A stretch of 24,849 nt of DNA from a virus (IMGVR_UViG_3300035698_012504:250694-275542), one strand, 5' to 3'. Shown: positions 225 to 20,973, counted from the stretch's first letter. The notes: generated from the letters alone by a model not told the origin. A program made the numbers and translations.

Positions 225-1298
225 TTATACTATTAAGAAATCGACTACCTTTTCTTTAGTTTCCTCGTTAGATAACATTCCTTCAAATACTTGTCTACAT
301 ATATCGGCATCAAATGCGGCATCATGTAAATTTTCTTGATTGAATTTAACATTATAATAATGAGCTGCCTCTAATAAGGTTGGTTTTTTATATTTAAAAT
401 TAGGGTGGAATTTATTAAGTGGTAATCTCATAACACTTGTATTGGTTCCACATGTACAAAATGAATATGTCCAATGCATCTTAGAGAACCTTCTATCAAA
501 CGTAGAGTTATGTGCTACAAAATGTTTTATACCTTTGCAATATTTTTCTATAGATGTTAAATCATTTCTATAAAATTCGGGATATGTTGCATCTCCTCTA
601 AATTCTGTAATGGTTTTATGAGTTAATCCATTTACAGCTACTGCTCTTGGATCATAACATCCTGACTCAGAATAGTAATATCTAATGTATGGTTCTACGT
701 CATCACAATCAACTACTTCCATCTTATCAAGATCTACAATTGCTCGTATAGCGCAGACAGATAATACATGATCTTTCTTCTCACTCACTCCTGTGGTCTC
801 GAAGTCTATAAATATAAGTGGAATAGATCCCCACGTCTTTATTTTATTAGCTTCTTCTTTAGCATAAGTATCACAGAGTTCGTTATACTTATTTCCTTTA
901 TGAGCCTCAACGTATTCTGCTAATACATTAAATTTCTTGAGGATCTCATTTATTTCTTTCCATAGATTTACATGAGCAATTTCTAATTTTTTACTATTCA
1001 TCCAACCATTACATGACCACTTCTGCAACCAACTATTTATAGAATTACAAACATATTTTGAGTCACTAAAAATCTTTACATTTGTTCCAGGTTCAAAGTT
1101 ATTATTAATATGTACTAATGAACTATAAGCAGCCATTACTTCCATTGCGCTATTTGTAGTATTCTCTTTATTACCTTTTAGTACTTCTAATTCTTTTCCA
1201 TCTTCTAAAACAACTGCTGCCCATCCTCCAGGAAATGTTCCTTTCTGATTATTACCTAAACATGAACCGTCAGTATATACAACTATCTCCTTACTCAT
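225..1298 (-). CDS. Fusion protein: N-terminal RNase HI domain plus C-terminal DnaQ/RNase-T-like DEDDh 3'-5' exonuclease
   Basis: The N-terminus matches RNase HI closely. '[23 protein letters not shown]' aligns with E. coli RnhA '[20 protein letters not shown]'. '[11 protein letters not shown]', '[18 protein letters not shown]' and '[18 protein letters not shown]' align with 'TTNNRMELMAA', 'STDSQYV..GITQWIHNW' and 'GHAGHPENERCDELARAA'. The C-terminus carries the exonuclease motifs: Exo I 'FIDFETTG', Exo II 'FVAHNSTFD' and Exo III '[14 protein letters not shown]' with the DEDDh histidine. Its stop overlaps the next gene by 8 nt. Confidence 0.85.
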   Translation of the reverse strand: [357 protein letters not shown]

Positions 1299-1779
1299 TG
1301 GAGCCCTTTCTAATCTTCGTAATTATCTCAGTAGTAGATATTCCTTCTACTCCAGAAAATAATAATATCTTACCACCATAATTTTCAACAATTTTTCTCT
1401 CTGTTTGAACTACTGTATCAATAGTATAATCGCCACCCTTCACATAATAATTTGGTTTCAATCCTCTTAGAACTTCGTCGAAATCTTTACCGTCCCAAAG
1501 AAGAATATAATCTACAAATTCTAATGATGAAAGAACTAGTGCTCTATCTTCCTGGTTCATTATCGGTCTACCAGGACCTTTATTTTTTACAACAGATTCA
1601 TCAGTATTGAGGCCGACTATAAGTACATCACCAGCGTTGGCTGCTCTCCTAAGGTACTTAATATGACCCGCATGCATTATATCAAAACATCCATTTGTCC
1701 AGACAGTAGTTAAATTTTTACATTTACATTCTTGAGAAATTATTTTCAAAGCATCAAATGATAAAGTCTTCAGTCTCAT
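1291..1779 (-). CDS. Cytidylyl/adenylyltransferase of the HIGH-motif family (RfaE domain II / HldE C-terminal type sugar-phosphate nucleotidyltransferase)
   Basis: The sequence 'TNGCFDIMHAGHIKYL' is the (T/H)xGH nucleotidyltransferase signature. It matches the GCFD(L/I)LHxGH motif of heptose-1-phosphate adenylyltransferase and glycerol-3-P cytidylyltransferase. The size (162 aa) fits this class, and the gene is translationally coupled to the one downstream. Confidence 0.7.
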   Translation of the reverse strand: MRLKTLSFDALKIISQECKCKNLTTVWTNGCFDIMHAGHIKYLRRAANAGDVLIVGLNTDESVVKNKGPGRPIMNQEDRALVLSSLEFVDYILLWDGKDFDEVLRGLKPNYYVKGGDYTIDTVVQTERKIVENYGGKILLFSGVEGISTTEIITKIRKGSNE

Positions 1780-1780
1780 T

Positions 1781-2050
1781 CTAATCCTCTCTAAATTGAG
1801 GTGGTCCAGTTCCTAGTGTCCGACCACTAATTTTATCTGCTATAATCGGAACCCTTGCAGTCATTCCATAATCATTGGGTTCTACTGGAGTACTAGTATT
1901 AATTTTATTGGTTACCTTCGTTGCAAAAGTTCCAAACACTTTCGATGTTTTTAAGCTTCCACAATTAGGGCATTTTTCTTTTGTCTTTCCCTTCTGTAAA
2001 GACTCCCAAGTATTGGTACACTCTTTACATTCAAAGGTAAATAATGGCAT
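1781..2050 (-). CDS. FmdB-family zinc-ribbon protein
   Basis: The N-terminus 'FECKECTNTWESLQK...KCPNCGS' fits the FmdB pattern CxxC...CPxCG. It is followed by a low-complexity tail. Confidence 0.6.
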   Translation of the reverse strand: MPLFTFECKECTNTWESLQKGKTKEKCPNCGSLKTSKVFGTFATKVTNKINTSTPVEPNDYGMTARVPIIADKISGRTLGTGPPQFRED

Positions 2051-2053
2051 AAT

Positions 2054-2446
2054 CTACTCCTTACTATTATAAACATCAGGGTCAAGATCTCTATTCCTAA
2101 GAATAGAAAAAATTATTTTCGGTATTGATGTGAGTTCCAGTTTAGGTACAAATATATCGACTACTTCAAACCCTTCTACATCCATATTAGGAACATCGTT
2201 ACCACTCATTAAAATTCCTACAGTAGTTGGGCTAAATCTTTTAATCTCCCTAATAAAATCTACACCATTCATTCCAGGCATTCTAAAATCTGAAATTACA
2301 ATATCATAAAACGGATGTAGAAGTGTTTCCCTTGGATCAGTTTTTACTTCTATTTCAATATTCTTCATGCTGCTCTCTAAGATATCAACAGCCAAATCTC
2401 TGATCATTTCATCATCGTCTATTAACAGAATCACTATTTTTTCCAT
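2054..2446 (-). CDS. Stand-alone response-regulator receiver domain (CheY-like), with no output domain
   Basis: It has 'ILLIDDDEMIRD' (the acidic pair), 'DIVISDFRMPGMNG' (the phospho-acceptor Asp), 'VGILMSGN' (the conserved Ser/Thr) and 'FVPKL' (the conserved Lys). The protein is 130 aa. A GGAG ribosome-binding site lies upstream at 2453-2458, read on the minus strand. Confidence 0.8.
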   Translation of the reverse strand: MEKIVILLIDDDEMIRDLAVDILESSMKNIEIEVKTDPRETLLHPFYDIVISDFRMPGMNGVDFIREIKRFSPTTVGILMSGNDVPNMDVEGFEVVDIFVPKLELTSIPKIIFSILRNRDLDPDVYNSKE

Positions 2447-2467
2447 AACAATATCTCCTTAATGTTT

Positions 2468-2493
2468 AGAAAAAAAAGGCATTGTGCCTTTTA
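2468..2493 (-). terminator. Rho-independent terminator between the Ro60 gene and the receiver gene
   Basis: Read on the minus strand the sequence is 'AAGGCA-caa-TGCCTT' followed by 7-8 T residues. The stem is 6 bp with a 3-nt loop. It starts immediately at the TAA stop of the Ro60 gene. Because it is flanked by an A-run upstream and a T-run downstream, it could act in both directions. Confidence 0.6.
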
Positions 2494-4110
2494 CGATTGC
2501 TGTGTTTCTATTTGGTTAGAAATGTCGATCATTTTTCTTGCGAACATCAGAACGCTGTGGCTCCAACCTCCAAGAATAAATGTTCTTCTGTAATACTCTG
2601 GAATTATTGTATCCTGATACCCAGCTGTCTGGACTAGGAATACATTAATATTAGGATTCACTTTTGTTCTATATCTATTTACAAGTTTGGGGACATCTAT
2701 ATATTGACCTGAGTTCGGGAATATGAAATCAGAGTAGGACGATTTATCTGATCCATACAATCCACCATGACCAGCTTGCATATCGGAATACACAAACAAG
2801 TTATCATAATGAATTTCCTTCTGAGTTATTTCATCTAAGGCCAACCAGATGCCATGCTCAGTACCGTGACCTATGCTCACGCCAATCTTATTAACTTCTT
2901 TTAGTTGATCAAATACAGAACTTCTTTTTCTTACATCATGGTATTTTAATCTATCCCCAAATACACCAATGACTCCTTCATCGGAAATCATTCCGGTAAG
3001 TATACCCATCATGTTTCCAATCTCCGCAACTGTTACTGATGAGTATTCTCCCGGTCCTGAGTCATAAGCACTACCAGAGTTATCGGTGAGTATTAGAGAT
3101 TTACCTGGAAGCTGAGGAAGCTCAGGCATTGATTTCATTAGACTATCTTCAAGTGCATCTAATATCTTAGCAGAACCAGTTGGATGTGCATTCTTTACTG
3201 CCATATATGCTGTCCAGTATCTAAATGGTAATAACATTCCACGTTCAGCAGATTTAGTCATCTTATCAACAATTAGATCCTGATCCACATCAGCAGTAAT
3301 TAAATTTCTAAGATTTTTAACTATTGCAAAGTGTCCCATAACGCCTAGACACTTATCCCAAGACTCACCTTTGGATCTTAATGCTTCCCAAGTTTCGTCA
3401 TTGAGTTTAAGTTCACCGCCTACTAAAGCACGGATATCATCGTTCCATTGAAAGTCAATCATATTAATAACATCAACAGTTTTGACTTCTCTTGATTCCA
3501 TTCTATATTTAGCAAGTTCATATTTCTTAGCTATTAGAAATCTATCTGCCCAAGATCTCTTAAGACTATTGGGTACAGGTTTTCCAAATGCTTTTAACTG
3601 ATATGCTAATTGAGTAGCTGGCTCGTCCATTCTCCTGAGAATTGAAGGAGCATACTTTCTTATTAGGCCAGTGCCTTTTACTTTTAAATGATTTGCAGCT
3701 CTTACCATTATTACTTGAGGAGTAACTCTTATCTTGTCTTCATTTCTAAGTGCAGCTGCAATATAAAGAGTTCCTTCTGGATCGAATGCTAATGCTTCAT
3801 CAATTGCTCGTTCCATCAATTCAGTTGGCTTAAGACTTCTCCAATCATATTTATCTATTGCATCTAAACTTTCTCTTAAATATTTTATTTGGGTGTCTGA
3901 TAATGTGGATGATTTTCTTGCTTCATCAAAACTTTTCTTTTTTCCAGAACCAGAGGAAGTGTAATACTTCGGTTCTCCAAAGAAACATGACGCAGCCATT
4001 GCTCTTAATCTTACTAGTGGAGTAATGTCAAAACTTGTTCCAGCCATAAAATTTTTGTGGGAATCTTTTCTCACTGCCGTCGACTTGGTCTTGTTAATCG
4101 TTGCCATCAA
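2491..4110 (-). CDS. rsr: Ro60/Rsr orthologue: TROVE domain plus von Willebrand A domain
   Basis: The length (539 aa) is close to human Ro60 (538 aa) and Deinococcus Rsr. 'RAMAASCFFGEPKYYTS' matches Ro60 'RFLCFGSEGGTYYI'. The vWA MIDAS motif 'LILTDNSGSA' lies near residue 335, matching Ro60 'LLAVDVSASM' near residue 375. The later vWA segments 'IGHGTEHG' and 'VFLVQTAG' correspond to 'PAGGTDCS' and 'VFIVFTDNET'. The start codon is TTG or ATG at 4110 or 4107, with an AAAGGA ribosome-binding site. Confidence 0.8.
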   Translation of the reverse strand: MMATINKTKSTAVRKDSHKNFMAGTSFDITPLVRLRAMAASCFFGEPKYYTSSGSGKKKSFDEARKSSTLSDTQIKYLRESLDAIDKYDWRSLKPTELMERAIDEALAFDPEGTLYIAAALRNEDKIRVTPQVIMVRAANHLKVKGTGLIRKYAPSILRRMDEPATQLAYQLKAFGKPVPNSLKRSWADRFLIAKKYELAKYRMESREVKTVDVINMIDFQWNDDIRALVGGELKLNDETWEALRSKGESWDKCLGVMGHFAIVKNLRNLITADVDQDLIVDKMTKSAERGMLLPFRYWTAYMAVKNAHPTGSAKILDALEDSLMKSMPELPQLPGKSLILTDNSGSAYDSGPGEYSSVTVAEIGNMMGILTGMISDEGVIGVFGDRLKYHDVRKRSSVFDQLKEVNKIGVSIGHGTEHGIWLALDEITQKEIHYDNLFVYSDMQAGHGGLYGSDKSSYSDFIFPNSGQYIDVPKLVNRYRTKVNPNINVFLVQTAGYQDTIIPEYYRRTFILGGWSHSVLMFARKMIDISNQIETQQS

Positions 4111-4565
4111 ACTATCCTTTCACGTCACTTCGGATCCACGGACCCGAACTTTAAAAATGGGGAGAATATCGCAAGGGCGATTTTTTCGCTTTTGATCCTT
4201 ATTCAAATGAAGTAACCCTTACATTCACTACCCCGAAAAATATATAAATAATATAAATTTAAGAAAAAACAGGAAAAGCTCGATCTGGTGTTGGTCTTCG
4301 CTGGCGCTCACTAGCCGATGGCTAGCAGCGTTCCAGCTCCATGAAGTAACCAAATCAATCACTACCTGTAAAAATCAACGCGAGATAAATAGCGACAGAG
4401 TATATGTTTCATTTTAAAGAAGTAACTCTATCTTTCACTACTCGCTAAAAACATTGGGAAAAAATCAACTAGGTGTTTGTTTCATTTAAAGGTGAAGTAA
4501 CCCAGTCATTCACTACCCAAAAAAAGATAAATCATCGTTCTCACTATTTAATATATATAGTATAT
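4111..4565. ncRNA. 455-bp non-coding locus with four direct repeats and a GC-rich hairpin; candidate structured RNA or RNAs, possibly Y-RNA-like, with strand unresolved
   Basis: No ORF of 60 aa or more is present. Four copies of the motif GAAGTAAC-N(6-8)-TCACTAC(C)-N(3-5)-AAAAA begin at 4209, 4343, 4419 and 4494. A roughly 60% GC imperfect hairpin sits at 4300-4337 in otherwise AT-rich DNA. The region lies directly upstream of the Ro60/TROVE gene. Read on the minus strand each repeat is TTTTT..GGTAGTGAAT..GGTTACTTCA. Confidence 0.4.
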
Positions 4566-5867
4566 CTAAACCTGGTAAACCCATTCATCATCTTCGAAAA
4601 TATTTTTTGTATCTATTATAATATCTGAGTATTCTTTTATAATACTATAATCCACATTATCATGATCAACTGCAATTATTACAGCATCAGATCGTTTACA
4701 TATTGTCTTGAGATCTTCTGATTCAAAACTATAATGTTTATCTACATAAGGATCATGATAAGTAATGTTAGCCCTTCTGAAAAGCAACTGTTCCAATATA
4801 GCAGTGCCGGTAGAGTTTCTAACGTCTCCCACATTCTTTTTGTAAGCCAATCCAATAATAGCAATGTTAGCTCCTTTCACAGGTTTGTCCGCAGAATCTA
4901 AAATCCATTTAATCTTGTCTATTAAAATATCTAATGATTTTTTATTGACGCCTGTACATGCGTCTATGATGGGGGTATCGACCCCATGTTTATTCGATTC
5001 ATATTTAAAATAATATGGATCTACTCCTATACATTCTCCGCCTATAGATGCAGTTGGATAGAATGGAGAAAATCCAAATGGTTTTGTACTTGCCAATTCT
5101 ATCACTTCTTTTAAACTAATTTCCATTTGATCGCAGAATTGTTTGACTTCATTCATAAAAGATATGTTTACAAATCTATACATATTTTCTAATAGCTTTG
5201 TTAGTTCTGCTACATGAGTTCCTGAAGCTTCTACTACTTCATCTACAATATTTAAATATAGTGCTTTTGCAATAGCAGTCGAAACTGGATCAACTCCCCC
5301 AACAATCTTTGGAGTATTTTCTAAAGTATATAATTTATTTCCTGGGTCTACTCGTTCAGGACTAAATGCAACATATCCTTCGAATCCTCTAGATCTTGTT
5401 GGGTTTAACTTGTCATCTTTAAAACGCCAGAAGTTTTTGTTTGTAAACCCAGGATACACTGTACTTTCTAATACAATTAAAAAATCAGACTTCCCATAAC
5501 TTACAATGTTATTATGAATAGTGTCAATCAATATTTCTAAGTTCTTTACTTCTGGTTTATTATTAATGGTTGGGGTTGGAACACATATGATTATACAATC
5601 ACAATCTACTAAGATTTTTTTCGGAGGCTTTTCCCAACATGTAAATAATTCCACACCGTGATTTAAAATATCTAGTTCTTCATCACTTATATAACTTATA
5701 TCACACTTACCCGATTTAAGTTTTTTAATCTTTCTTTCATCTACATCAAATCCCCTGACTCTGAATCCTGCCTTTGCGAATTTAAGGGCCAACGGCAAAC
5801 CTACGTAGCCAAGTCCAATTATACCAATTTTAGCTTTCTTGGTTTCTATTTTTTCTAATAATTCCAT
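4566..5867 (-). CDS. Nucleotide-sugar dehydrogenase (UDP-glucose/GDP-mannose dehydrogenase family, WbpA/WecC-like UDP-N-acetyl-hexosamine dehydrogenase)
   Basis: It has an N-terminal Rossmann motif 'KIGIIGLGYVGLPLA'. The catalytic-cysteine motif 'IGGECIGVDPYYF' matches the 'GGHCIPVDPYY' of the WbpA/WecC branch. The C-terminal domain contains 'IIGLAYKKNVGDVRNS'. The protein is 433 aa. Confidence 0.85.
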   Translation of the reverse strand: MELLEKIETKKAKIGIIGLGYVGLPLALKFAKAGFRVRGFDVDERKIKKLKSGKCDISYISDEELDILNHGVELFTCWEKPPKKILVDCDCIIICVPTPTINNKPEVKNLEILIDTIHNNIVSYGKSDFLIVLESTVYPGFTNKNFWRFKDDKLNPTRSRGFEGYVAFSPERVDPGNKLYTLENTPKIVGGVDPVSTAIAKALYLNIVDEVVEASGTHVAELTKLLENMYRFVNISFMNEVKQFCDQMEISLKEVIELASTKPFGFSPFYPTASIGGECIGVDPYYFKYESNKHGVDTPIIDACTGVNKKSLDILIDKIKWILDSADKPVKGANIAIIGLAYKKNVGDVRNSTGTAILEQLLFRRANITYHDPYVDKHYSFESEDLKTICKRSDAVIIAVDHDNVDYSIIKEYSDIIIDTKNIFEDDEWVYQV

Positions 5868-5879
5868 TGCAGTCCTTTC

Positions 5880-6143
5880 TTATTCATCGCCTTCTTTATT
5901 GGAAACAAACTCACTGATGTAAACATTCCTCAAACACTCAAAATTATGTTTCAACTCTGGAATCTTCTCAAAAAATAAAGAGAGTTCTGTAATCAATCCC
6001 TCTATTTCTGCCATCTCGTTTAGATTAGTTAGATCATAATTAATGGTTCTGGTAAACGTTGGATTTAAACCCTGCTTAGTTTGAATTAACTTACTAATCT
6101 TCGAATCTAAATCCAATAATTTTTTAATGATATTTTCAATCAT
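5880..6143 (-). CDS. Hypothetical protein
   Basis: An 87-aa ORF with the ribosome-binding site GAGAGGAAAAAG, tightly packed between the capsid and dehydrogenase genes. I recognise no motif. Confidence 0.45.
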   Translation of the reverse strand: MIENIIKKLLDLDSKISKLIQTKQGLNPTFTRTINYDLTNLNEMAEIEGLITELSLFFEKIPELKHNFECLRNVYISEFVSNKEGDE

Positions 6144-6243: not shown

Positions 6244-7710
6244 TTATGCACCAGTATCGGAATCTGTAATGGTTAGTGCAGCCAATCCTTCAGGTCTTAT
6301 TACCTTAACCGCATAACGACTTAGGATTGTAAGTGATGGATTGTTACCAAGAGGATAAGGAATTAAGAGTGCTGGTACGTAAGGGGCATACACGCAAACC
6401 GCTTTCATCATTTCTGGGCTTCTGTGTTTCATAATTACTGTACCCTGAGGAACAATACTAGAAACAAGAATCTTCCATTTACCTGAAGATACTGTAGCTG
6501 AACGGTATCCGACATCTCCACCGGCAACACTATCGCCAACATATTCGAAGCCGTTAAGGGATTCAAATACTGCTGCATCAAGTGGGTTACATGCTAATGT
6601 ATTAGCAGGACCGATAAGAGAGGTGTTATACACCTGTGCGGAAAGCTTATTCAGTGTTGGAATAATATTTTCATACCATGCCTTACGACCCCATGTGAAT
6701 CCAGTTGGAGGATTCAGATCAAATGAGTCAGTATGGCTAGATGGGTTGTTGGAACTATTAGCAGTAATAAGCGTACTAATTAGTTGGTTATCAATGTCAA
6801 GAGCAATCTGCTCACCTATGATATTTACAAGCTCACTTTGAAGCTTAATATCATAAAGAGCCTGAATGTCTTGTTCCATATTCACTGTCCATTCTGCAGA
6901 GATTCGTCTGTCTACGACTTTGAATCTTATCTTTTCAACGTCGAACTTGACAGTCGGGTTAATTGTGTTTTCTTCTAGAGACGCATATCCCTGGAAGCCT
7001 ATTTCAGCTACTTCGCCTGTCGCTGAACTCCAGGTCAGTAGACCGTTTAAGTAATCAACATGACCACTTACGGTATCTGGACCTGCATTTGTGGTAACGT
7101 CAAAAGAGAAATTACCGTCGACATCGGCTTGCCAATCAACGGCAACGTATCCACCAGTTTGATCATAAATACCGGTGATTTTGAAATCTTTTTCAAGGTG
7201 TGAGTCAGTGCTATCCAGTGAGACCTCAGCTAGCACATCGTGATTTTGACCCTCAGTTGCTGTAGCAGCTACGCTGATACCAATAGAAGGACCACGAGAG
7301 ATATCTGTGGAGGTTGAAGGGAATGCATGATCATAGCCACTATCAACGTGACGTTTGAATGAAGGTCTTATAAATCCTTTGATTACATCGGGCTTATCAA
7401 TAGGCATTACATTAACTAATTCTTTCGCGACTAGTTTCGGATAGAATACGCGAAGTATAGGTAGTGTCATTGTCTCATATGGATTCAGTTGGAACATGCT
7501 GTTTTCCATCAGGTTTAGACGAGTATTCTCGGCTAATTGACTGAAGTCATCAGCTTGGTCCGTAGGTAGACCTTCGGCTAGGTTCTTTGCATAGTACTTA
7601 AAGCTCTCTGGGCTTGCAAGCATCTGACGGAAACCTTGAGGCGAACGTACGTCTAGACCAGTGTTGCGTTTTGTAGCATTATATGTTTCTTGTAGTAAAT
7701 GTTGCATCAT
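6244..7710 (-). CDS. Major capsid protein, T4 gp23-like
   Basis: 'VCVYAPYVPAL' matches T4 gp23 'GIYYAPYVALT'. 'AEWTVNMEQDIQALYDIKLQSELVNIIGEQIALDIDNQLI' matches gp23 'AAYSIELAQDLRAVHGMDADAELSGILATEIMLEINREVV'. The C-terminal 'VKVIRPEG' matches 'RRVYVKGI'. The protein is 488 aa. Confidence 0.8.
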   Translation of the reverse strand: MMQHLLQETYNATKRNTGLDVRSPQGFRQMLASPESFKYYAKNLAEGLPTDQADDFSQLAENTRLNLMENSMFQLNPYETMTLPILRVFYPKLVAKELVNVMPIDKPDVIKGFIRPSFKRHVDSGYDHAFPSTSTDISRGPSIGISVAATATEGQNHDVLAEVSLDSTDSHLEKDFKITGIYDQTGGYVAVDWQADVDGNFSFDVTTNAGPDTVSGHVDYLNGLLTWSSATGEVAEIGFQGYASLEENTINPTVKFDVEKIRFKVVDRRISAEWTVNMEQDIQALYDIKLQSELVNIIGEQIALDIDNQLISTLITANSSNNPSSHTDSFDLNPPTGFTWGRKAWYENIIPTLNKLSAQVYNTSLIGPANTLACNPLDAAVFESLNGFEYVGDSVAGGDVGYRSATVSSGKWKILVSSIVPQGTVIMKHRSPEMMKAVCVYAPYVPALLIPYPLGNNPSLTILSRYAVKVIRPEGLAALTITDSDTGA

Positions 7711-11756: not shown

Positions 11757-12986
11757 CTACTCTAATCCTTTCTTTGTAACAGTCCATTTAAATCTAATTT
11801 TATCTACATCTCCCCTACTTTGAACTAAAAATCCAGTTCTATATCTCTCTACAGGTTCAACTGCAGCAAATTGGTGTGGGGATCCTGAATAGGAAATAAC
11901 ATCTATATCTATATTATAATCTTGTGTACCTATGTCTCTATCAAAATTTATCATTGTAGCTCTTGGTGAAAAATGAACGTTGGCTTGAGTTATAGCATCG
12001 TTCTCCCACGCCGTAGACATATAATATGGATCAATATTATAAGTAGGAAAAAAGTCCTCAGAGGCGCTGAGTGCATTCTGAACTGGTAACCCATATTTTC
12101 CATTTCCAAACTCATCTCGAATTATATCATGTGAAAGCACATTTGTAAGATTATTCCCAGTATGATTTGCAGGTACATGATAAGCATATGCTACAATAAC
12201 ATGTTCTTTAGTTATCACTTTAACATCAGAATCTATCTCAGATAAATCTGTTTGCCACCCATCTATTTCAAACGGACCTAAGTCATAAGCTTTAACTAAT
12301 TCTCCAACTACGGATCCAGAATATGGATTAGCAGAGTAGGGACCTAGTAATTGTGGTAGATATCTAAATGAATTGTTTATCTGTTCTTCTGAAAATAAAG
12401 TCGAAACTGTATCTATTACATAATTATTTTCGCCAGCCAAATACGGATATCCAACAGCAGCTAGATAATAAACAACAGGATATGATTCATCATTTTCAGG
12501 AATAGTTAAATATGAACCATTATCAATCGGATGTAATTTTCCATCAACGTATACATAACTATAATCTAACCCAGCTGGATATATCTTCCTACTTGTTAAT
12601 ACATTTTCTGGAGTATACCATGTCTGATTTATTACACCTGTTGCGACTGCGGCTGGGGTTTCAGAGTACGCAGCAATACCTCTATTATATATAGTATCTT
12701 CCCCATTTATTATTTCTCGAGATATATTAGATAAATTCTTAGATACTTTGCCAACCATATACAATGCATATGTTGACATTAATTGTGAGTCAGCAGCATT
12801 TAAAAATGCGACTCCACCATCATCTGAACCATTTCCTATTCGTAAAGTATTATCTGATACACTGACACCACTCTGTGGGCCGCTATCAAATGTTTTATTC
12901 AATGTAAATGCTGGTTCGCCTCTGACCAATAAGTGATCATCCACATAGGTCGTGTCACCTCTTTTTAATTTTATAAGAGTTGCCAT
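11757..12986 (-). CDS. Tail-fibre / receptor-binding-like protein
   Basis: The N-terminus 'MATLIKLKRGDTTYVDDHLLVRGEPAFTLNKT...LRIGNGSD' matches the widespread conserved N-terminal module of phage tail-fibre proteins (M-A-x-I-x-L-(K/R)-R-G...GEP...DT..L.IGDG). The remainder is Tyr/Asn/Gly-rich, consistent with a beta-rich fibre. Confidence 0.55.
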   Translation of the reverse strand: MATLIKLKRGDTTYVDDHLLVRGEPAFTLNKTFDSGPQSGVSVSDNTLRIGNGSDDGGVAFLNAADSQLMSTYALYMVGKVSKNLSNISREIINGEDTIYNRGIAAYSETPAAVATGVINQTWYTPENVLTSRKIYPAGLDYSYVYVDGKLHPIDNGSYLTIPENDESYPVVYYLAAVGYPYLAGENNYVIDTVSTLFSEEQINNSFRYLPQLLGPYSANPYSGSVVGELVKAYDLGPFEIDGWQTDLSEIDSDVKVITKEHVIVAYAYHVPANHTGNNLTNVLSHDIIRDEFGNGKYGLPVQNALSASEDFFPTYNIDPYYMSTAWENDAITQANVHFSPRATMINFDRDIGTQDYNIDIDVISYSGSPHQFAAVEPVERYRTGFLVQSRGDVDKIRFKWTVTKKGLE

Positions 12987-15002: not shown

Positions 15003-15893
15003 TTACATAACTCCTTCTAATTTTAAAGAATTAATATATTTTAAAAATTCTTCTTGCTTATATTTACCACTTTTTTTCTTATTATCCATCTCAGTTAAAA
15101 ATTGTAAATTACTTTCACCATTTATAATATCTAAATCATAAATGTTATTTTCAACAAATGCTTTTATTGGAAAAATATGATCAATATGAATTTTTAAATT
15201 ATTTATATTATATTTCTTTCTGAATTTTCTTTTATATGATGAACTTAAAGAATGAATTCTTTTAATCGACCTTATTTTACTTCTATCTGGATTCCAATTA
15301 GAACTGTTTTCTCCGGAAAGTTTATCTATTTTACAATAAATACATCGTTGGCCCCTTTTAAAATTACTAAAAGTAATTTTTGATGTATTTCCGCAATTGC
15401 ACTTATATTTTAAAGGAATTTCACATGTAATATATTTATCTAATAAAACACAATCTCTTTCTTTAAAATAACTATTCACCTCTTCTTGAGAGTATCTATG
15501 ACTATTCGCTCTTCGTTTTATTCCACATTTTTTACATCTACTTCCTTCCTTAAAACGACCAAGAACTGTACTAGAAATATTTCCACAAACACACCTATAC
15601 TTTACAGGACTATTATTATTCTTATATTTGTCCAGTAATTTACATCCTTCTTTTTTAAATATATATTCAACCTCTTTTTGAGAATGTTTCTTTTTACTAG
15701 ATCTTTTCTTTATTCCACAGCTCATACATCGCTTACCTTCTCTAAAATGATAAAGAGAAATCTTAGACTCATTCCCACAAATACATCTATACTTCATAGG
15801 AATATCACAATTATTATATTCTTCTGCTAAAAGTTCACAACCTTCCTTCTTAAATATTTCTCTAACTGTTTCTAACGTATATTTCCTATTCAT
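15003..15893 (-). CDS. Free-standing HNH endonuclease with three tandem zinc-ribbon repeats (homing-endonuclease-like)
   Basis: It contains three repeats of about 48 aa of the form 'F.KEGC.LL..Y.N...P.KY.C.CGN.S......F..G.RC..CG'. The C-terminal HNH core is 'KIHIDHIFPIKAF...NGESNLQFL'. An AGGAAAT ribosome-binding site is present. The gene is inserted between the prohead protease gene and the structural genes. Confidence 0.7.
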   Translation of the reverse strand: MNRKYTLETVREIFKKEGCELLAEEYNNCDIPMKYRCICGNESKISLYHFREGKRCMSCGIKKRSSKKKHSQKEVEYIFKKEGCKLLDKYKNNNSPVKYRCVCGNISSTVLGRFKEGSRCKKCGIKRRANSHRYSQEEVNSYFKERDCVLLDKYITCEIPLKYKCNCGNTSKITFSNFKRGQRCIYCKIDKLSGENSSNWNPDRSKIRSIKRIHSLSSSYKRKFRKKYNINNLKIHIDHIFPIKAFVENNIYDLDIINGESNLQFLTEMDNKKKSGKYKQEEFLKYINSLKLEGVM

Positions 15894-15943: not shown

Positions 15944-16639
15944 TTATAAACTATACTTATTTTTTAAATCTTTCATTCGTGTCTCTACTAGTTTATCATA
16001 CTGATTTGGAATCATGCACACGCCATTTTTAAGGCACACTAACCCACCCTTTTCGGAAACACATTCCATTAATCCAACAGATTCATGAATTGTTCTTGTA
16101 ACTGTTTCAGTTATTTTAATCATTCTAGCTGAGTCATGACTTGGATAACTTACGGAGTCCCAAGTTACTACATGTAAAGGATGTTGAACTTCATATACAA
16201 CATCACTACCTTCATTTATTTGTTTTACATCTCCCATTCCACGGAAACTAAATCCGACAGGAACGCCATCTTCGGCAAGATTTTTTAAGATGTAACCATT
16301 AGGAGTTCTTAATGTTTCTATAGTCGCCATTAATTTATTTGAACTCCAACCAGTCTCTAAGATTCTATGAGAACAGTCTTTATATAATACTGTTACTTGT
16401 CTAACTGGGTTCTGATCTATTGGGTGATCTAGCTCTCCAATAAAAGATCCTTCTTGTACTCTCTTCTTAATAGAGTTCAGACCTTCATCCAATAAAGCTC
16501 TACTATACTTTCTTTTATTTCTATTTATCTCATCACACGTTTGAAGGATGCACTCCATTCTAACTCTACCATTTTTATCGGTAGATTTTAGTTTGGTTGG
16601 GACAGATACTACGCTTGGTGATTCTGCGATTATAAACAT
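15944..16639 (-). CDS. Prohead core protease, T4 gp21-like (peptidase U9)
   Basis: 'EINRNKRKYSRALLDEG...GELDHP' matches T4 gp21 'VVNRNKRLYPKRILEKA...GELNHP'. 'GVPVGFSFRGMG' matches 'GWIPGVSSRGLG', the catalytic Ser region. 'VVTWDSVSYPSHDSA' matches 'VDAVWGPSAPDAWV'. The protein is 231 aa. Confidence 0.8.
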   Translation of the reverse strand: MFIIAESPSVVSVPTKLKSTDKNGRVRMECILQTCDEINRNKRKYSRALLDEGLNSIKKRVQEGSFIGELDHPIDQNPVRQVTVLYKDCSHRILETGWSSNKLMATIETLRTPNGYILKNLAEDGVPVGFSFRGMGDVKQINEGSDVVYEVQHPLHVVTWDSVSYPSHDSARMIKITETVTRTIHESVGLMECVSEKGGLVCLKNGVCMIPNQYDKLVETRMKDLKNKYSL

Positions 16640-17682: not shown

Positions 17683-20600
17683 TTAAAATCCACCGCCACC
17701 ACCCATGCCACCAGGTGCTTCCTCGCCTTCATCTTTACCTTCAATCTTATCTTGAAGCTTCTGAGCTCTCTCAAATTTATCAATTTCTTCCCAAGGAAGG
17801 TTAAGATATTTCTTACATAACCATTCTTTATTAACTCCAAGTTCTTCTAATATTTGAACAATAGATTGTATTTGTTGAAAGTGCTCACCTTCCCGTTCTA
17901 TTTGAAGTAGCTTAGGAGGTGAAAATGTAACTAAAATTCCTACTGGTAATTTTTCATTTCTTATATATTTATATAATTTAGAGAACAAGCTCATTATATT
18001 TCGTGTAAGCATTTGTTGATACGCTACAATAGTTCTGGCAAATACATCATTTTCATGTGCAAGTGCAGCTTTATTACTATTATGAATAAATATACCAGCC
18101 GAAACTGCAAAGTTATGGTATGTCTCTACTCTGATATCACCACAATCGATTTTATATGATAATTTTTCAACTTTAACTACTTTATGGTTTAATATCAGTT
18201 CTTTTACTTCTCTCTTTCTAGTAAATATTTCACTTCTCTGTTGTGCTGTAGAAACTGCCCGATACTTATTTAAACAATTAGGATTATAACAAATAGTCTT
18301 ATATTGTTTTTCTTCCCAAGTGCCAAATCTTGAAGCCTCGGTGTAAACATAAAGATTTTCACATACTTCACAATATCTATATTCTATATTAGACCATAGA
18401 CGTCCTTTAAGTTTAGTCATTGATATGTTAGCTTTTCTAACCATCTTAGCACAATAATTATCATCGCAATTATACCATTTATATGGTTGCTCTTCTAATT
18501 GTTTCTTTAATTTTTTTGTTAACGTCTTAGTAAATTGCTTGCCACAATGAGAACATGACATAGTTATTTCTGGAAACTTTTTATCATAATCAATTTTACG
18601 AGAATCCCATGATAAACGACCTGTTTGTTGATGTCTTATTTTTCTACAAGCAGACGAACACGTCGTTTGAACTGTATCAGATCTATTAGTAAATGTTTTA
18701 CCACATATTTCACACGTTCTTTCCTCATATGAAGTACCAGGTACAGACAGTTCGAATAATTTTTTACGATTTTCTTGTAATTTTGTAAGTTCTTCTTTTG
18801 AAAATAACTTTGTACGGGCATGTAATGCAAGATGATCTCCAGCGGATAAACCCACTAAATTTTTAGTAGAATTGTTCAATGGATTCATATCTATATGATG
18901 ACAATGCTCATTACTAACAGCCATCTTTGTATAATGACTAAATGATCTATGCATCCAATCCCAAACATCTATTCCCGGATGATAAACATAATTATATTTA
19001 GTAGCTTTTTCTTTATTTCTACTTTTAATATAAGGTTTCATTTTCTTATAAAACGGCATTAAAGAATCACCTGGTTGTAAAGAACCAGCTTCAACATATT
19101 CACCACTTCTTTTCATCATTTTATGTTCAGGAGTAATTATTAAAAATTCACCATTATCTAATGTTATCTTAACAGCATCTACATCAAATTGAGTATATCC
19201 GGCCCATGTGACTTTATTCGGAAATACAACCCCCAAATCTTCATCATAAGAAATAACTTCAAATTCTTCACCTTTTTCAAATCTATCTATCATTTCTTTA
19301 AGGAGGATTTTCTTTCCATTAGTCAATTCGATGTAAGTCGTTGATACACAAGAAGATAGATTCTCCTCGAGGTTCATATATGCGGGAGGCACGTCTAAAC
19401 TAGACACTAACATATCCCTGAAAAACTTTAATTCATCTGTAACATCTCTGATGTTAGTTGGTGATTCTATTCTATCAAACTGAATTGCAGGTTCACCACC
19501 CCTTGGTCTTGGTATATAATATTCTTCATAAGATGTTATCATTGAAGGTATTGAAGAAATATTTCCCCAACTATCCACACTATGCTTTCTCTTCTTAGTC
19601 TTCTCTTGGAAGTCGGCAATAATATTTCTTACTTGTCTATCGGGAGAGGCATCAACGATAATCATCCTTTTATCACTAGAGTCAGATACTCTCTTAATAG
19701 TAACAGCTACTTCTAATGCTATCAATAACTTAGCCTGCCACATTGATTTGTAGAATATACTTTCTCCGTATGGGAAGAATCTCTTATTATAAATACAAAA
19801 ATGCTCCATCCGTTCAGGCGGAACATATCTTACTATTAACTTCTGATCATCTGTATTTTTTATCTCAGCCATTGCTCTGTTAATCAAAGTAACTAATTCT
19901 TTCTTATCTACTTTAGCATCCTTGGCAACATTTACACGACCTATATACTTAGAGACTGCTTTCATTATTTCTGCATATACTTTTTCTACTCCCGATAGAT
20001 TAGTATTTCTTGGATCATATCCAGTAATTTTCTTATTTAGATTCTGATTTGTTTTCATGGTCGCCCCAGACGAACTATTACTATTAATAGGAATAACTAA
20101 ATATCCTAAACACATTTTAAATCGTCTGGATTGTATCTTTATAACAGCTCTAGAATCGTGTACTATTAGTTTAATCTCTTCTAAAGCAGATTCTAGATTT
20201 GGTTTATCACTTGTAGGATTATCTTCATCTTTTTTCTTTTTTCTTACAGCTTCATCTATTACTACAACTGGCTCTATAGTTTTAGTATAGGCTTCACCAT
20301 TTTCATTAAGATATTCTATGTCTACTGATTCTAGAGTCATAACAGCATCTTCTGGCAATCCTTGCCTATCTGCTTCTGTAAGAATAACTTGAGTAACTGG
20401 TACCTCTTTAGATTTGTAACTAGCAAATTCTACGAACTGATCTCCGTACGATAAAGTATTACTTATTATATCATGTATCTCACCTTCTAAACCTAGATGG
20501 TCAGATATTGCTCTTATATCGCCTATTTTACTTTTATCTTTTTCTGATAGATCTTTTCCTCCAGTGATGTTGATGACCTCTTTCGAAACATCATCGGGGG

Positions 20601-20973
20601 ATAGGATACCATCTGTAATAACTTTTAATGCTCTAGAACAATAAGGTATATTGTCAACTATCTCATCTGCGTTATTATATCTCCAATATCTACCTTGTAG
20701 TTCTTCTGAATCTACTAGTTCTTGTGTTAAATCTCCAAGTGTCTTTTTGGCCCAGCTCTCATCTCCACCAACATCCATAGATTTAATAATAGAATTTTTA
20801 ATAACTTCGGCATATTTAAATGAATGTTTATCCACTATAGTATCTGATATTTTATCTAGTACATCATCGACATTATCTAGTTCCTTCTTGGTTGTTGTAC
20901 CAATTATCTTGGACACTATTTTGTCAAATGAGGACTGAATAGGATCAGATACTTTATTTTTCTTTTTTGCCAT
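17683..20973 (-). CDS. Portal protein, T4 gp20-like, interrupted in frame by a 424-aa intein
   Basis: The exteins match T4 gp20. 'AKLLIALEVAVTIKRVSDSSDKRMIIVDA' aligns with '[26 protein letters not shown]'. 'YEEYYIPRPRGGEPAIQFDRIESPTNIRDVTDELKFFRDML' aligns with '[43 protein letters not shown]'. Once the intein (residues 542-965) is removed, the mature portal would be about 672 aa. The C-terminus is 'GGMGGGGGF'. Confidence 0.8.
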   Translation of the reverse strand: MAKKKNKVSDPIQSSFDKIVSKIIGTTTKKELDNVDDVLDKISDTIVDKHSFKYAEVIKNSIIKSMDVGGDESWAKKTLGDLTQELVDSEELQGRYWRYNNADEIVDNIPYCSRALKVITDGILSPDDVSKEVINITGGKDLSEKDKSKIGDIRAISDHLGLEGEIHDIISNTLSYGDQFVEFASYKSKEVPVTQVILTEADRQGLPEDAVMTLESVDIEYLNENGEAYTKTIEPVVVIDEAVRKKKKDEDNPTSDKPNLESALEEIKLIVHDSRAVIKIQSRRFKMCLGYLVIPINSNSSSGATMKTNQNLNKKITGYDPRNTNLSGVEKVYAEIMKAVSKYIGRVNVAKDAKVDKKELVTLINRAMAEIKNTDDQKLIVRYVPPERMEHFCIYNKRFFPYGESIFYKSMWQAKLLIALEVAVTIKRVSDSSDKRMIIVDASPDRQVRNIIADFQEKTKKRKHSVDSWGNISSIPSMITSYEEYYIPRPRGGEPAIQFDRIESPTNIRDVTDELKFFRDMLVSSLDVPPAYMNLEENLSSCVSTTYIELTNGKKILLKEMIDRFEKGEEFEVISYDEDLGVVFPNKVTWAGYTQFDVDAVKITLDNGEFLIITPEHKMMKRSGEYVEAGSLQPGDSLMPFYKKMKPYIKSRNKEKATKYNYVYHPGIDVWDWMHRSFSHYTKMAVSNEHCHHIDMNPLNNSTKNLVGLSAGDHLALHARTKLFSKEELTKLQENRKKLFELSVPGTSYEERTCEICGKTFTNRSDTVQTTCSSACRKIRHQQTGRLSWDSRKIDYDKKFPEITMSCSHCGKQFTKTLTKKLKKQLEEQPYKWYNCDDNYCAKMVRKANISMTKLKGRLWSNIEYRYCEVCENLYVYTEASRFGTWEEKQYKTICYNPNCLNKYRAVSTAQQRSEIFTRKREVKELILNHKVVKVEKLSYKIDCGDIRVETYHNFAVSAGIFIHNSNKAALAHENDVFARTIVAYQQMLTRNIMSLFSKLYKYIRNEKLPVGILVTFSPPKLLQIEREGEHFQQIQSIVQILEELGVNKEWLCKKYLNLPWEEIDKFERAQKLQDKIEGKDEGEEAPGGMGGGGGF
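18079..19350 (-). mobile_element. Intein (Hint domain plus HNH homing-endonuclease domain plus Cys-rich zinc-ribbon motifs) inserted in the portal gene
   Basis: The intein begins with Cys ('NLSS|CVSTTYIELTNGKK', block A) and ends 'FAVSAGIFIHN|S', which is the block-G His-Asn followed by a +1 Ser on the C-extein. The internal HNH motif is 'EHCHHIDMNPLNNSTKNLVGL...DHLALH'. Several CxxC pairs are present ('CEICGKTF...CSSAC', 'CSHCGKQF', 'CEVCENLY...CYNPNC'). I verified the nucleotide boundaries by hand: TGT at 19350-19348 and AAT at 18081-18079. Confidence 0.7.

What the first reader, a model, noticed from the sequence alone, without database searches (positions are those of the whole stretch)
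2054..2446. Phage-encoded stand-alone CheY-like receiver domain
All the hallmark receiver residues are present: the acidic pair, the phospho-Asp in 'ISDFRMPGMNG', Ser in 'ILMSG' and the conserved Lys. There is no DNA-binding or enzymatic output domain. A phage-borne single-domain response regulator could soak up or redirect phosphoryl flux from a host histidine kinase, for example the Pho or another stress phosphorelay. It is insulated from the Ro60 gene by an intrinsic terminator, so it is probably transcribed differently.
Basis: partly seen in the sequence, partly recalled or inferred. Interest (0 to 1): 0.55.

Follow-up and report, generated by a model that had tools for sequence, protein, structure and literature searches.

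The report
Orphan stand-alone receiver protein on phage
A large uncultured phage carries a small bacterial-type signalling "receiver" protein with no output domain; genes of this kind are rare in phages but already catalogued, and this one has an off-consensus active-site lysine and no known partner or host.

Summary
The ORF at 2054-2446 (minus strand, 130 aa) is real and is a classical response-regulator receiver domain: Pfam PF00072 scores 51 bits against a cutoff of 30, and the AlphaFold model (pLDDT 85) matches solved receivers at TM about 0.8. The acidic pair (D10/D11), the phospho-acceptor Asp (D53) and Ser81 are in register. The "conserved Lys" is not: the protein reads Pro101-Lys102 where 98% of relatives read Lys-Pro. 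Helices α2 and α4 are reduced. There is no output domain.

The window is the T4-type head module of a novel large phage. The receiver lies in a lineage-specific insertion (UGDH, an RNA-rich gap, Ro60/TROVE, receiver) between genes that are adjacent in a related phage (L041). None of 35 related phage loci carries it, and it has no orthologue among about 15 billion proteins. Its nearest relatives (about 35-40% identity) sit in ordinary bacterial kinase operons. It is not a cRec domain (tested).

The upstream hairpin exists, but there is no room for an independent promoter behind it.

Stand-alone receivers are already annotated in a few phages (for example Alteromonas phage V22 gp30), and none has been characterised. 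The most likely role is a phospho-acceptor that taps a host two-component pathway. A phosphorylation-independent pseudo-receiver is a serious rival. Verdict: new member of a known kind, modest interest.

The parts
2054..2446 (-). Receiver (REC) CDS, 130 aa, stand-alone classical response-regulator receiver domain; TAG stop
   Evidence: ORF. PF00072 at 51.2 bits, cutoff 30.2. AF2 pLDDT 84.8, pTM 0.81. Foldseek TM about 0.8 to PmrA, DrrB and Spo0F receivers.
2414..2419 (-). Codons for D10-D11, the acidic pair (CheY D12/D13), followed by D12
   Evidence: Alignment columns are 90% and 98% Asp. D10A/D11A costs 10.5 bits in the custom profile. Codons read.
2288..2290 (-). Codon for D53, the predicted phospho-acceptor (CheY D57) in ISDFRMPGMNG
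   Evidence: 100% Asp column. D53A costs 7.3 bits.
2204..2206 (-). Codon for S81 (CheY T87 position) in ILMSG
   Evidence: Column is 66% Thr and 32% Ser.
2141..2146 (-). Codons for P101-K102: 'PK' where the family has the near-invariant 'KP' (CheY K109-P110)
   Evidence: Searches align P101 to the Lys column and K102 to the Pro column. PK to KP adds 10.1 bits, and the posterior is low.
2455..2460 (-). Ribosome-binding site AAGGAG, 8 nt before the ATG
   Evidence: Read from the sequence.
2466..2492 (-). Terminator-like hairpin AAAAGGCA-CAA-TGCCTTTT followed by a U-run; it overlaps the TROVE stop codon
   Evidence: Consensus scan. It folds as an 8-bp stem; the 71-nt region has z = -1.8 against shuffles. 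No promoter-like site lies between it and the ATG.
2491..4110 (-). Upstream gene: Ro60/TROVE-family protein (context; part of the same lineage-specific insertion)
   Evidence: Weak Pfam TROVE hit. About 1,900 homologues, most annotated PF05731, at 50-56% identity.
4566..5867 (-). UDP-glucose/GDP-mannose dehydrogenase (context; first gene of the insertion)
   Evidence: Pfam, three domains. phrog_9148. Absent from the relatives.
1781..2050 (-). Downstream gene: FmdB-type zinc-ribbon protein, 3 nt after the receiver's stop; its ribosome-binding site lies in the receiver's last two codons. A conserved phage gene that marks the distal edge of the insertion
   Evidence: PF09723 and TIGR02605. Homologues downstream of the capsid gene in L030, L031 and L041, without a receiver.
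5880..6143 (-). Conserved 87-aa phage gene marking the proximal edge of the insertion
   Evidence: Homologue in L041 at 12509-12757; one 72-aa ORF and then the zinc-ribbon gene follow it.

Best explanation
The gene encodes a classical two-component receiver domain that a large, T4-head-type phage captured from a bacterium and keeps as a stand-alone accessory gene. It sits in a lineage-specific island just downstream of the major capsid gene. It is compositionally assimilated, has a strong ribosome-binding site, and is packed head to tail with the following genes. It is most likely expressed by read-through of a weak hairpin behind the Ro60-like gene.

Mechanism I commit to (inferred, not shown): in the infected cell the protein accepts a phosphoryl group on Asp53 from a host histidine kinase or Hpt protein, with Mg2+ held by D10/D11 and Ser81 contacting the phosphoryl group. 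It has no output domain, so it acts in one of two ways. It may be a competitor or sink that drains a host pathway, or it may be a phosphorylation-dependent binding protein for a host or phage target. Which pathway it touches is unknown.

Shown: domain identity, fold, four of five catalytic positions, phage context, island structure, absence from relatives. Inferred: phosphorylation, host kinase as donor, sink or effector role.
For: - Domain identity: PF00072 above its cutoff; 68 solved receivers matched by sequence; model pLDDT 84.8 with TM about 0.8 to receivers, including BeF3-activated ones.
- Active site: D10, D11, D53, S81 and G61 are retained in register although the nearest homologue is only about 35-40% identical. 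These are the positions expected to survive if the phosphorylation chemistry is kept.
- Origin: the nearest stand-alone relatives lie in bacterial kinase operons. P0005 overlaps a Cache-HAMP-HisKA-HATPase_c gene, and P0003 lies between an RR-HD-GYP gene and a PAS-HisKA gene.
- Intact and assimilated: strong ribosome-binding site and intact ORF. GC and GC3 of 0.32/0.25 are typical of the phage. The DNA is identical on contigs from three samples.
- Phage context and island.
- Precedent for single-domain regulators acting as sinks, hubs or direct enzyme activators: PMC5964349, PMC12802240. Precedent for phages interfering with host two-component systems: PMC10714779.
Against: - The near-invariant Lys-Pro is inverted to Pro-Lys, at a cost of 10 bits, and the alignment there is uncertain.
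- Alpha4 is almost absent and of low confidence, and alpha2 is a single turn. The alpha4-beta5-alpha5 face is the usual signalling surface.
- There are no orthologues, so conservation of D53 cannot be tested.
- No kinase or Hpt gene lies in the 24.8-kb window, and the rest of the genome (a contig of at least 152 kb) could not be read.
- The host is unknown.
- The upstream hairpin may keep expression low.
- No related phage needs this gene.
Confidence: 0.45

Rival explanations
1. Pseudo-receiver: the fold is kept as a phosphorylation-independent protein-binding module. It could be a decoy that docks on a host kinase, or an adaptor, and the remaining acidic residues would be a legacy or serve only in docking.
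For: PK replaces KP at the most conserved C-terminal motif. Alpha4 is degenerate and of low confidence, and alpha2 is truncated. The Pfam match stops at profile position 90 of 111. The sequence is a singleton with no close family.
Against: Known pseudo-receivers usually lose the phospho-acceptor Asp or the acidic pair (established knowledge). Here all three Asp residues and the Ser/Thr are retained in a sequence that has otherwise diverged to about 35% identity. A one-residue register shift restores the Lys (VPKL against the IPKPF of P0005).
Confidence: 0.3
2. Regulator of sugar-nucleotide or polysaccharide metabolism: a single-domain regulator that binds and tunes an enzyme, either the phage's own UDP-glucose dehydrogenase or heptose-1-phosphate adenylyltransferase, or a host envelope-polysaccharide enzyme. 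The M. xanthus single-domain regulator that activates a phosphoglycosyl transferase works this way.
For: The receiver lies between UGDH (4566-5867) and an RfaE-domain-II-type adenylyltransferase (1291-1779; 164 bits, E = 1.8e-48) in one same-strand gene string. Precedent: PMC12802240.
Against: The evidence is proximity only. The TROVE gene and a zinc-ribbon gene lie between the receiver and these enzymes. No relative shows the same arrangement, so no conserved linkage can be shown.
Confidence: 0.08
3. cRec-type enzyme: a divergent receiver-fold phosphoesterase that resolves 2',3'-cyclic phosphates or cyclic ADP-ribose derivatives in RNA repair, working with the adjacent Ro60-like protein.
For: It is adjacent to a Ro60/TROVE gene, a component of RNA-repair platforms. 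cRec domains are reported in up to 18% of jumbo phages (PMC7824862, PMC9503650).
Against: The bona fide cRec of phage rV5 (gp079) hits Pfam PF20274 cREC_REC at 52.3 bits. The window protein hits only PF00072 in the same library. BLASTP between the two gives E = 20, and hhalign gives a probability of 0.2%. The nearest relatives sit beside histidine kinases, which cRec never does. There is no sirtuin, KptA, Nudix, Macro or RNA ligase in the window. None of seven other phage-like TROVE neighbourhoods has a receiver.
Confidence: 0.02
4. Split or read-through response regulator: the receiver works with, or is fused by TAG read-through to, the zinc-ribbon protein encoded 3 nt downstream in the same frame, and the ribbon serves as the output domain.
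For: The receiver's TAG and the zinc-ribbon ATG are in frame (AAG GAG TAG ATT ATG), and the ribbon's ribosome-binding site lies in the receiver's last codons. FmdB-type ribbons are annotated as putative regulators.
Against: The zinc-ribbon gene is conserved downstream of the capsid gene in relatives that have no receiver (L030, L031, L041), so it is not a dedicated partner. TAG is an ordinary stop for 9 of 27 genes here. An in-frame arrangement has a 1-in-3 chance. Gaps of 1-3 nt are the norm in this genome.
Confidence: 0.04
5. Decaying passenger: a recently captured gene fragment without function.
For: It is a singleton, it is absent from all relatives, and it has an off-consensus C-terminal half.
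Against: The ORF is intact with a consensus ribosome-binding site. Its composition is fully ameliorated to the phage. The catalytic residues are retained. The model is confident. The same sequence was recovered from several samples.
Confidence: 0.05

Closest known systems
Stand-alone CheY-like proteins of Alteromonas phages (V22 gp30, 149 aa; A5 gp11, 147 aa), annotated as class II auxiliary genes (PMC7289586, PMC10579305)
   Same: It is a phage-encoded, single-domain PF00072 receiver next to virion structural genes, and its function is untested. V22 gp30 scores 79 bits on PF00072 and appears among the viral fold matches.
   Different: It is only 21% identical over 71 residues (BLASTP E = 0.95), so the two were acquired independently. 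V22 gp30 covers the whole Pfam profile (positions 2-111), whereas this protein stops at position 90 and has PK in place of KP. The V22 gene is shared by several Alteromonas phages, whereas this one is a singleton.
Bacterial single-domain response regulators (CheY, Spo0F, DivK, CpdR, MrrA, EpsW)
   Same: It has the same fold, the same acidic pocket, the same phospho-acceptor Asp and Ser/Thr, and no output domain. This is the 'works like' model: a shuttle, sink, hub or direct effector binder (PMC5964349, PMC12802240).
   Different: It is not an orthologue of any of them. The NCBIfam models score far below their cutoffs: CheY 25.7 against 189, CpdR 30.6 against 180. It is encoded by a virus, with no cognate kinase nearby. 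It has the PK motif and reduced alpha2 and alpha4.
Stand-alone receiver P0005 (130 aa) encoded directly behind a Cache-HAMP-HisKA-HATPase_c kinase in a metagenomic bacterium
   Same: It is among the closest sequences found (34% identity, the same length) and is also single-domain. It has a Pro just before the Lys (IPKPF), resembling VPKL here.
   Different: P0005 keeps the canonical Lys-Pro and a full alpha4, and it has an obvious cognate kinase.
cRec / PF20274 (cyclic-phosphate-processing receiver domain of phages)
   Same: It has a receiver-like Rossmannoid fold with conserved aspartates, it is phage-borne, and it lies near RNA-repair-type genes.
   Different: It is a different family by every test run, and it does not share cRec's NAD/ADP-ribose and RNA-ligase context.
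PDB 9qih 'SenB' (304 aa), the best solved match by sequence
   Same: Its N-terminal receiver aligns over residues 5-107 (E = 2.9e-8), with a very similar beta1 and beta3 region (LDDDEMIRDL; D-x-R-x-P-x-M-x-G-x-DFI).
   Different: SenB has a C-terminal extension of about 180 aa and the canonical VDFFIKPF. I found no paper describing it.

Membership tests
Response_reg (PF00072), classical receiver domain | Profile score above the curated threshold | tested here: met
   51.2 bits against 30.2, E = 1.7e-13, profile positions 1-90 of 111. A custom profile of the 171 nearest domains gives 86.8 bits.
Response_reg (PF00072), classical receiver domain | (beta-alpha)5 doubly wound fold | tested here: met
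   AF2 pLDDT 84.8; five strands and alpha1, alpha3 and alpha5 are clear, alpha2 is one turn, and alpha4 is nearly absent or of low confidence. Foldseek TM about 0.8 to PmrA, DrrB and Spo0F receivers.
Response_reg (PF00072), classical receiver domain | Acidic pair after beta1 (CheY D12/D13) | tested here: met
   D10 and D11 fall in columns that are 90% and 98% Asp.
Response_reg (PF00072), classical receiver domain | Phospho-acceptor Asp at the end of beta3 (CheY D57) | tested here: met
   D53 falls in a 100% Asp column, followed by the RMPGMNG loop.
Response_reg (PF00072), classical receiver domain | Ser/Thr at the end of beta4 (CheY T87) | tested here: met
   S81; the column is 66% Thr and 32% Ser.
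Response_reg (PF00072), classical receiver domain | Lys at the end of beta5 followed by cis-Pro (CheY K109-P110) | tested here: inconclusive
   Three aligners put P101 in the Lys column and K102 in the Pro column. PK to KP adds 10 bits, and the posterior is low. An alternative register puts K102 on the Lys and L103 on the Pro. No coordinates were available to measure the K102-D53 distance.
Response_reg (PF00072), classical receiver domain | Asp phosphorylation by a histidine kinase or by small-molecule donors | not testable with these tools
   This needs biochemistry.
Two-component system (cognate kinase-regulator pair) | Histidine kinase or Hpt gene encoded nearby | tested here: not met
   No HisKA, HATPase_c or Hpt hit in any of the 25 window ORFs of at least 80 aa that were scanned.
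Stand-alone (single-domain) response regulator | No output domain | tested here: met
   The protein is 130 aa and hits one Pfam family. Residues 119-130 are disordered. The ORF ends at TAG, which is an ordinary stop in this genome.
Chemotaxis CheY proper | Equivalog-level similarity to CheY | tested here: not met
   NCBIfam CheY scores 25.7 bits against a cutoff of 189, and the haloarchaeal CheY model scores 25.5 against 200. The protein is 'CheY-like' only at the fold level.
   PhoB models score 27.2 against 471 and 24.1 against 296 bits. There is no DNA-binding domain.
cRec (PF20274 cREC_REC) | Match to the cREC_REC profile, or similarity to a bona fide cRec | tested here: not met
   There is no PF20274 hit, whereas rV5 gp079 scores 52.3 bits. 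BLASTP gives E = 20 and hhalign gives a probability of 0.2%.
cRec (PF20274 cREC_REC) | Context of NAD/ADP-ribose or RNA-ligase genes; never with histidine kinases (PMC7824862, PMC9503650) | tested here: not met
   No sirtuin, KptA, Nudix, Macro or RNA ligase in the window. The nearest homologues lie beside kinases. Only the TROVE adjacency fits, and seven other TROVE loci lack a receiver.

The most novel reading that the evidence does not exclude
The phage uses a kinase-less, output-less receiver as a molecular decoy. During infection it would drain or jam a specific host phosphorelay (for example an envelope-stress or defence-linked two-component system). The unusual Pro-Lys beta5 end and the missing alpha4 would be adaptations that let it take phosphate, or dock on the kinase, without being recognised by host phosphatases or targets. 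That would be the first functionally defined virus-encoded mimic of a two-component receiver.
Probability: 0.2. Interest if true: 0.6.

Novelty: new member of a known kind. Interest (0 to 1): 0.3.

Why it matters
Phages are known to manipulate host signalling, but no phage-encoded receiver domain has been studied functionally, as far as the searchable literature shows. Receivers are rare in viruses: 26 fold matches at E <= 0.001 in BFVD, and 190 of 50,697 GenBank phage records, many of them doubtful.

A demonstrated phosphate-sink or kinase-decoy role would add two-component mimicry to the list of viral take-over strategies. It would also give a small, easily expressed tool for blocking a bacterial pathway.

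As it stands, this is one more annotated example. The host and the partner are unknown and there are no orthologues, so its value is as a candidate for biochemistry rather than as a discovery.

Tried and rejected
- **Orthologue search, to test conservation of the Asp.** The word-index search and the exhaustive HMMER search of 1.84 billion representatives found only the protein itself. IMG/VR had no relative. GenBank phages gave only two weak hits in uncultured faecal phage contigs. No comparative or selection test is possible, and the independent contigs are 100% identical at the DNA level.
- **Synteny.** I fetched 35 related phage loci through the capsid protein. None has the receiver, TROVE, UGDH, adenylyltransferase or RNase H genes.
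- **Ro60-receiver linkage.** Seven other phage-like TROVE neighbourhoods lack a receiver. Rejected.
- **cRec.** Rejected by direct test.
- **Defence or anti-defence families.** No PADLOC hit for the receiver.
- **Host assignment.** Scans of GTDB genomes with the capsid protein and with UGDH returned nothing. The window has no tRNA genes.
- **Independent promoter.** No promoter-like site lies between the hairpin and the ATG. The T4 late-promoter motif TATAAATA is not enriched: 8 found against 5.9 expected.
- **TAG read-through into the zinc ribbon.** Rejected as unlikely.
- **TGA recoding.** Rejected. TGA is common out of frame, and Trp is encoded by TGG at the normal rate.
- **K102 geometry.** I could not extract coordinates from the model, so the Lys register remains open.
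- **'SenB' (9qih).** I found no literature on it.

Full report
**What is there**

The minus strand of 2054-2446 holds an intact ORF of 130 codons, running from ATG to TAG. An AAGGAG ribosome-binding site lies 8 nt upstream. Against Pfam-A the protein hits only PF00072 Response_reg: E = 1.7e-13, 51.2 bits against a cutoff of 30.2. The match covers profile positions 1-90 of 111, so the C-terminal fifth adds nothing to the score. NCBIfam returns only generic receiver-level hits, all far below their equivalog cutoffs. Examples are CheY at 25.7 against 189 bits, PhoB at 27.2 against 471, and CpdR at 30.6 against 180. By sequence the protein matches 68 solved receivers, and the best is 9qih 'SenB' at E = 2.9e-8.

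**Hallmark residues**

I extracted 171 receiver domains from the best hits of the exhaustive search and aligned them with CheY, Spo0F and PhoB. Four of the five classic positions are in register:
- D10 and D11 fall in the acidic-pair columns (90% and 98% Asp).
- D53 falls in the phospho-acceptor column (100% Asp).
- S81 falls in the Ser/Thr column (66% Thr, 32% Ser).
- G61 falls in an invariant Gly column.

The fifth position does not fit. The Lys column (98% Lys; CheY K109) aligns with Pro101, and the following Pro column (94% Pro) aligns with Lys102. HMMER against 9qih and a second MAFFT alignment give the same result.

A profile built from the 171 domains scores the wild type at 86.8 bits. 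In silico changes shift that score as follows:

| Change | Effect on score (bits) |
|---|---|
| PK to KP swap | +10.1 |
| D10A/D11A | -10.5 |
| D53A | -7.3 |

The posterior probability of the alignment is low across residues 95-104. An alternative register exists. Relative P0005 reads LFIPKPF, and the query's IFVPKLE can be laid on it with Lys on Lys. An L103P change then gains 2.3 bits in that register. So either the Lys is displaced by one residue or the cis-Pro is lost. Either way the protein departs from one of the two most conserved C-terminal positions, and the tools could not settle which.

**Fold**

AlphaFold2, run with a 31-sequence alignment, gives pLDDT 84.8 and pTM 0.81.
- The strands are beta1 (4-9), beta2 (30-35), beta3 (49-53), beta4 (76-80) and beta5 (98-100).
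- The clear helices are alpha1 (13-26), alpha3 (61-71) and alpha5 (105-118).
- Alpha2 is a single turn (38-40).
- Alpha4 is almost absent (93-95), and mean pLDDT drops to 65 in residues 81-90.
- Confidence falls in the C-terminal tail: mean pLDDT is 56 for residues 121-130 and below 50 for 128-130.

Foldseek against the PDB returns only receiver domains, with TM about 0.8 to PmrA, DrrB, Spo0F, VicR and TrrA-BeF3. There is no output domain.

**Phage context**

All 27 large ORFs run on the minus strand. The window is a T4-type head module:
- a gp23-type capsid gene at 6244-7710 (PF07068; phrog_20655; about 24% identity to AR9/PBS1, LPJP1 and T4-like capsids);
- a gp21-type prohead protease gene at 15944-16639;
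- a gp20-type portal gene at 17683-20973, interrupted by an intein with an HNH nuclease.

The window has no near match in GenBank phages. The exact receiver protein is on record on six contigs from JGI, ENA and Logan assemblies, the longest 152 kb. The three contigs I could read are 100% identical to the window at the DNA level.

**An accessory island**

Through the capsid protein I fetched 35 related loci at 38-68% identity, some on IMG/VR contigs of 180-236 kb. A tblastn search of 18 window proteins shows that the genes upstream of the capsid gene are syntenic. The receiver, TROVE, UGDH, adenylyltransferase and RNase H-exonuclease genes are absent from every relative.

In L041 the order is: capsid, homing endonuclease, homologue of the window's 87-aa gene, a 72-aa ORF, zinc ribbon, HAD-like gene. 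L030 is similar. In the window, UGDH, a 455-nt gap, TROVE and the receiver sit between the 87-aa gene (5880-6143) and the zinc-ribbon gene (1781-2050).

Two things follow. The receiver belongs to a lineage-specific insertion. And the zinc-ribbon gene, although it starts 3 nt after the receiver's stop, is a conserved phage gene rather than a dedicated partner. The receiver's GC and GC3 (0.32 and 0.25) match the rest of the phage, so it is not a fresh import from a donor of different composition.

**No orthologues**

The exhaustive HMMER search of 1.84 billion cluster representatives found only the protein itself below 1e-30. The other 13,175 hits are generic receivers at 25-40% identity, and the top ranks are multi-receiver proteins.

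The nearest stand-alone relatives are ordinary bacterial two-component genes. P0005 overlaps the end of a Cache-HAMP-HisKA-HATPase_c kinase gene. P0003 lies between an RR-HD-GYP gene and a PAS-HisKA kinase gene.

**The terminator claim**

A terminator-like element is present. It is an 8-bp stem with 3 G-C pairs (AAAAGGCA/UGCCUUUU), a 3-nt loop and a U-run, and it begins on the TROVE stop codon. Only about 20 nt follow before the receiver's ATG, and these include the ribosome-binding site. The scan finds no promoter-like site there. Any transcript that reaches the receiver must pass through the hairpin. The element more plausibly attenuates expression of the downstream four-gene string (gaps of 3, 1 and -8 nt), or stabilises the Ro60 mRNA, than defines a separate transcription unit.

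**Rival: cRec**

Iyer, Aravind and colleagues describe a divergent receiver-fold 'cRec' domain in jumbo phages. It is tied to NAD/ADP-ribose and RNA-repair genes and is never found with kinases (PMC7824862, PMC9503650). The gene here sits next to a Ro60-like gene, so I tested this directly.

In phage rV5 the neighbourhood the paper describes is present: phosphoesterase, kinase, RnlA, gp079, Sir2 and a MazG-like gene. gp079 hits Pfam PF20274 cREC_REC at 52.3 bits. The window protein does not hit that family in the same library. It shows no similarity to gp079 (BLASTP E = 20; hhalign probability 0.2%). The window contains none of the partner genes. Seven other phage-like TROVE neighbourhoods carry RNA ligase, CCA-adding enzyme or Nudix genes but no receiver. 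cRec membership is rejected.

**Other rivals**

- **Pseudo-receiver.** This reading is supported by the PK motif and the degenerate alpha2 and alpha4. It is opposed by the retention of all three Asp residues and the Ser.
- **Enzyme regulator.** A role in controlling the neighbouring sugar-nucleotide enzymes, as with the M. xanthus single-domain regulator that activates a phosphoglycosyl transferase (PMC12802240), rests on proximity only.
- **Read-through fusion.** The receiver's TAG is in frame with the zinc-ribbon ATG. However, TAG ends 9 of 27 genes, the in-frame arrangement has a 1-in-3 chance, and the ribbon occurs without a receiver in relatives.
- **Defence system.** PADLOC gives no hit.

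**Precedent and novelty**

Stand-alone receivers are already annotated in phages. Alteromonas phage V22 gp30 (149 aa; 79 bits on PF00072 over the full profile) and A5 gp11 are described as CheY-like class II auxiliary genes (PMC7289586, PMC10579305). V22 gp30 is only 21% identical to the present protein, so the two acquisitions were independent.

BFVD holds 26 viral receiver-fold proteins at E <= 0.001. Most come from giant viruses and phaeoviruses, with a handful from tailed phages. Those include stand-alone proteins of 125-153 aa. A Spo0F query finds receivers in 190 of 50,697 GenBank phage records, and many of those records are fragmentary or probably bacterial. I found no functional study of any phage receiver. 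A phage protein that perturbs host two-component systems by other means is known (PMC10714779).

**Verdict**

The 'all hallmarks present' and 'separately transcribed' statements are not. The best reading is an accessory, probably phosphorylatable, single-domain receiver that taps a host phosphorelay as a sink, decoy or phospho-dependent binder (confidence about 0.45). A phosphorylation-independent pseudo-receiver is the main alternative (about 0.3). It is a new, orphan member of a known but uncharacterised kind. Interest is modest (0.3).

Noticed in passing
window 4156-4522 (minus strand), in the 455-nt gap between UGDH and the TROVE gene: There are four copies of GTAGTGAnnGnnnnnGTTACTTC, at 4494-4516, 4419-4441, 4343-4365 and 4209-4231. 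They occur only here and only on the gene strand (0.01 expected). The gap folds better than all shuffles (z = -3.3). The four units share a consensus long hairpin of 13 pairs, and 7 of the pairs are kept through changes on both sides. This is probably an array of four paralogous structured RNAs, candidate Y-RNA-like partners of the phage Ro60 protein. Rfam has no match. The motif is absent from the other TROVE loci I fetched.
   Followed up: partly
whole window, 27 ORFs: Stop-codon usage is TAA 18, TAG 9 and TGA 0. TGA is common out of frame (538 occurrences), and Trp is encoded by TGG at a normal 11 per 1000 codons. So TGA is not a sense codon; it is simply never used to terminate. The chance of 0 in 27 is 0.06 to 0.00007 for a baseline TGA share of 10-30%. 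Unexplained.
   Followed up: partly
window 17683-20973 (minus strand): The gp20-type portal gene (1096 aa) is interrupted by an intein splicing domain with an HNH homing endonuclease (PF14890, residues 551-965; phrog_15471).
   Followed up: no
window 15003-15893 (minus strand): A free-standing HNH/homing-endonuclease-like ORF (phrog_559, phrog_681) sits between head genes. Its GC is only 0.25 against about 0.34 for the window, which suggests a mobile insertion.
   Followed up: no
window 225-1779 and 4566-5867 (minus strand): These accessory genes are absent from all related phages: a UDP-glucose dehydrogenase; an RfaE-domain-II-type heptose-1-phosphate adenylyltransferase (164 bits, just under the 181.5 cutoff); and an RNase H fused to a DEDDh exonuclease.
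   Followed up: partly
window 2050-2060 (minus strand): The receiver's last two codons (AAG GAG) form the ribosome-binding site of the zinc-ribbon gene. The receiver's TAG stop is in frame with that gene's ATG, one codon later.
   Followed up: yes
L046 5645-7192; L048 5657-6665; L007 9657-10353: Other phage-like contigs with a TROVE gene have gene-free gaps of 0.7-1.5 kb immediately downstream of it, with RNA ligase, Nudix or NAD-salvage genes nearby; L050 instead carries a CCA-adding enzyme gene upstream of its TROVE gene. The gaps are possible sites of further Ro60-associated RNAs.
   Followed up: no
window 22878-23594 (minus strand): A 238-aa ORF carries Listeria-Bacteroides repeat domains (Flg_new_2, 104.7 bits, three repeats). 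It may be a virion decoration or adhesin, and it is a weak hint about the host's envelope type.
   Followed up: no
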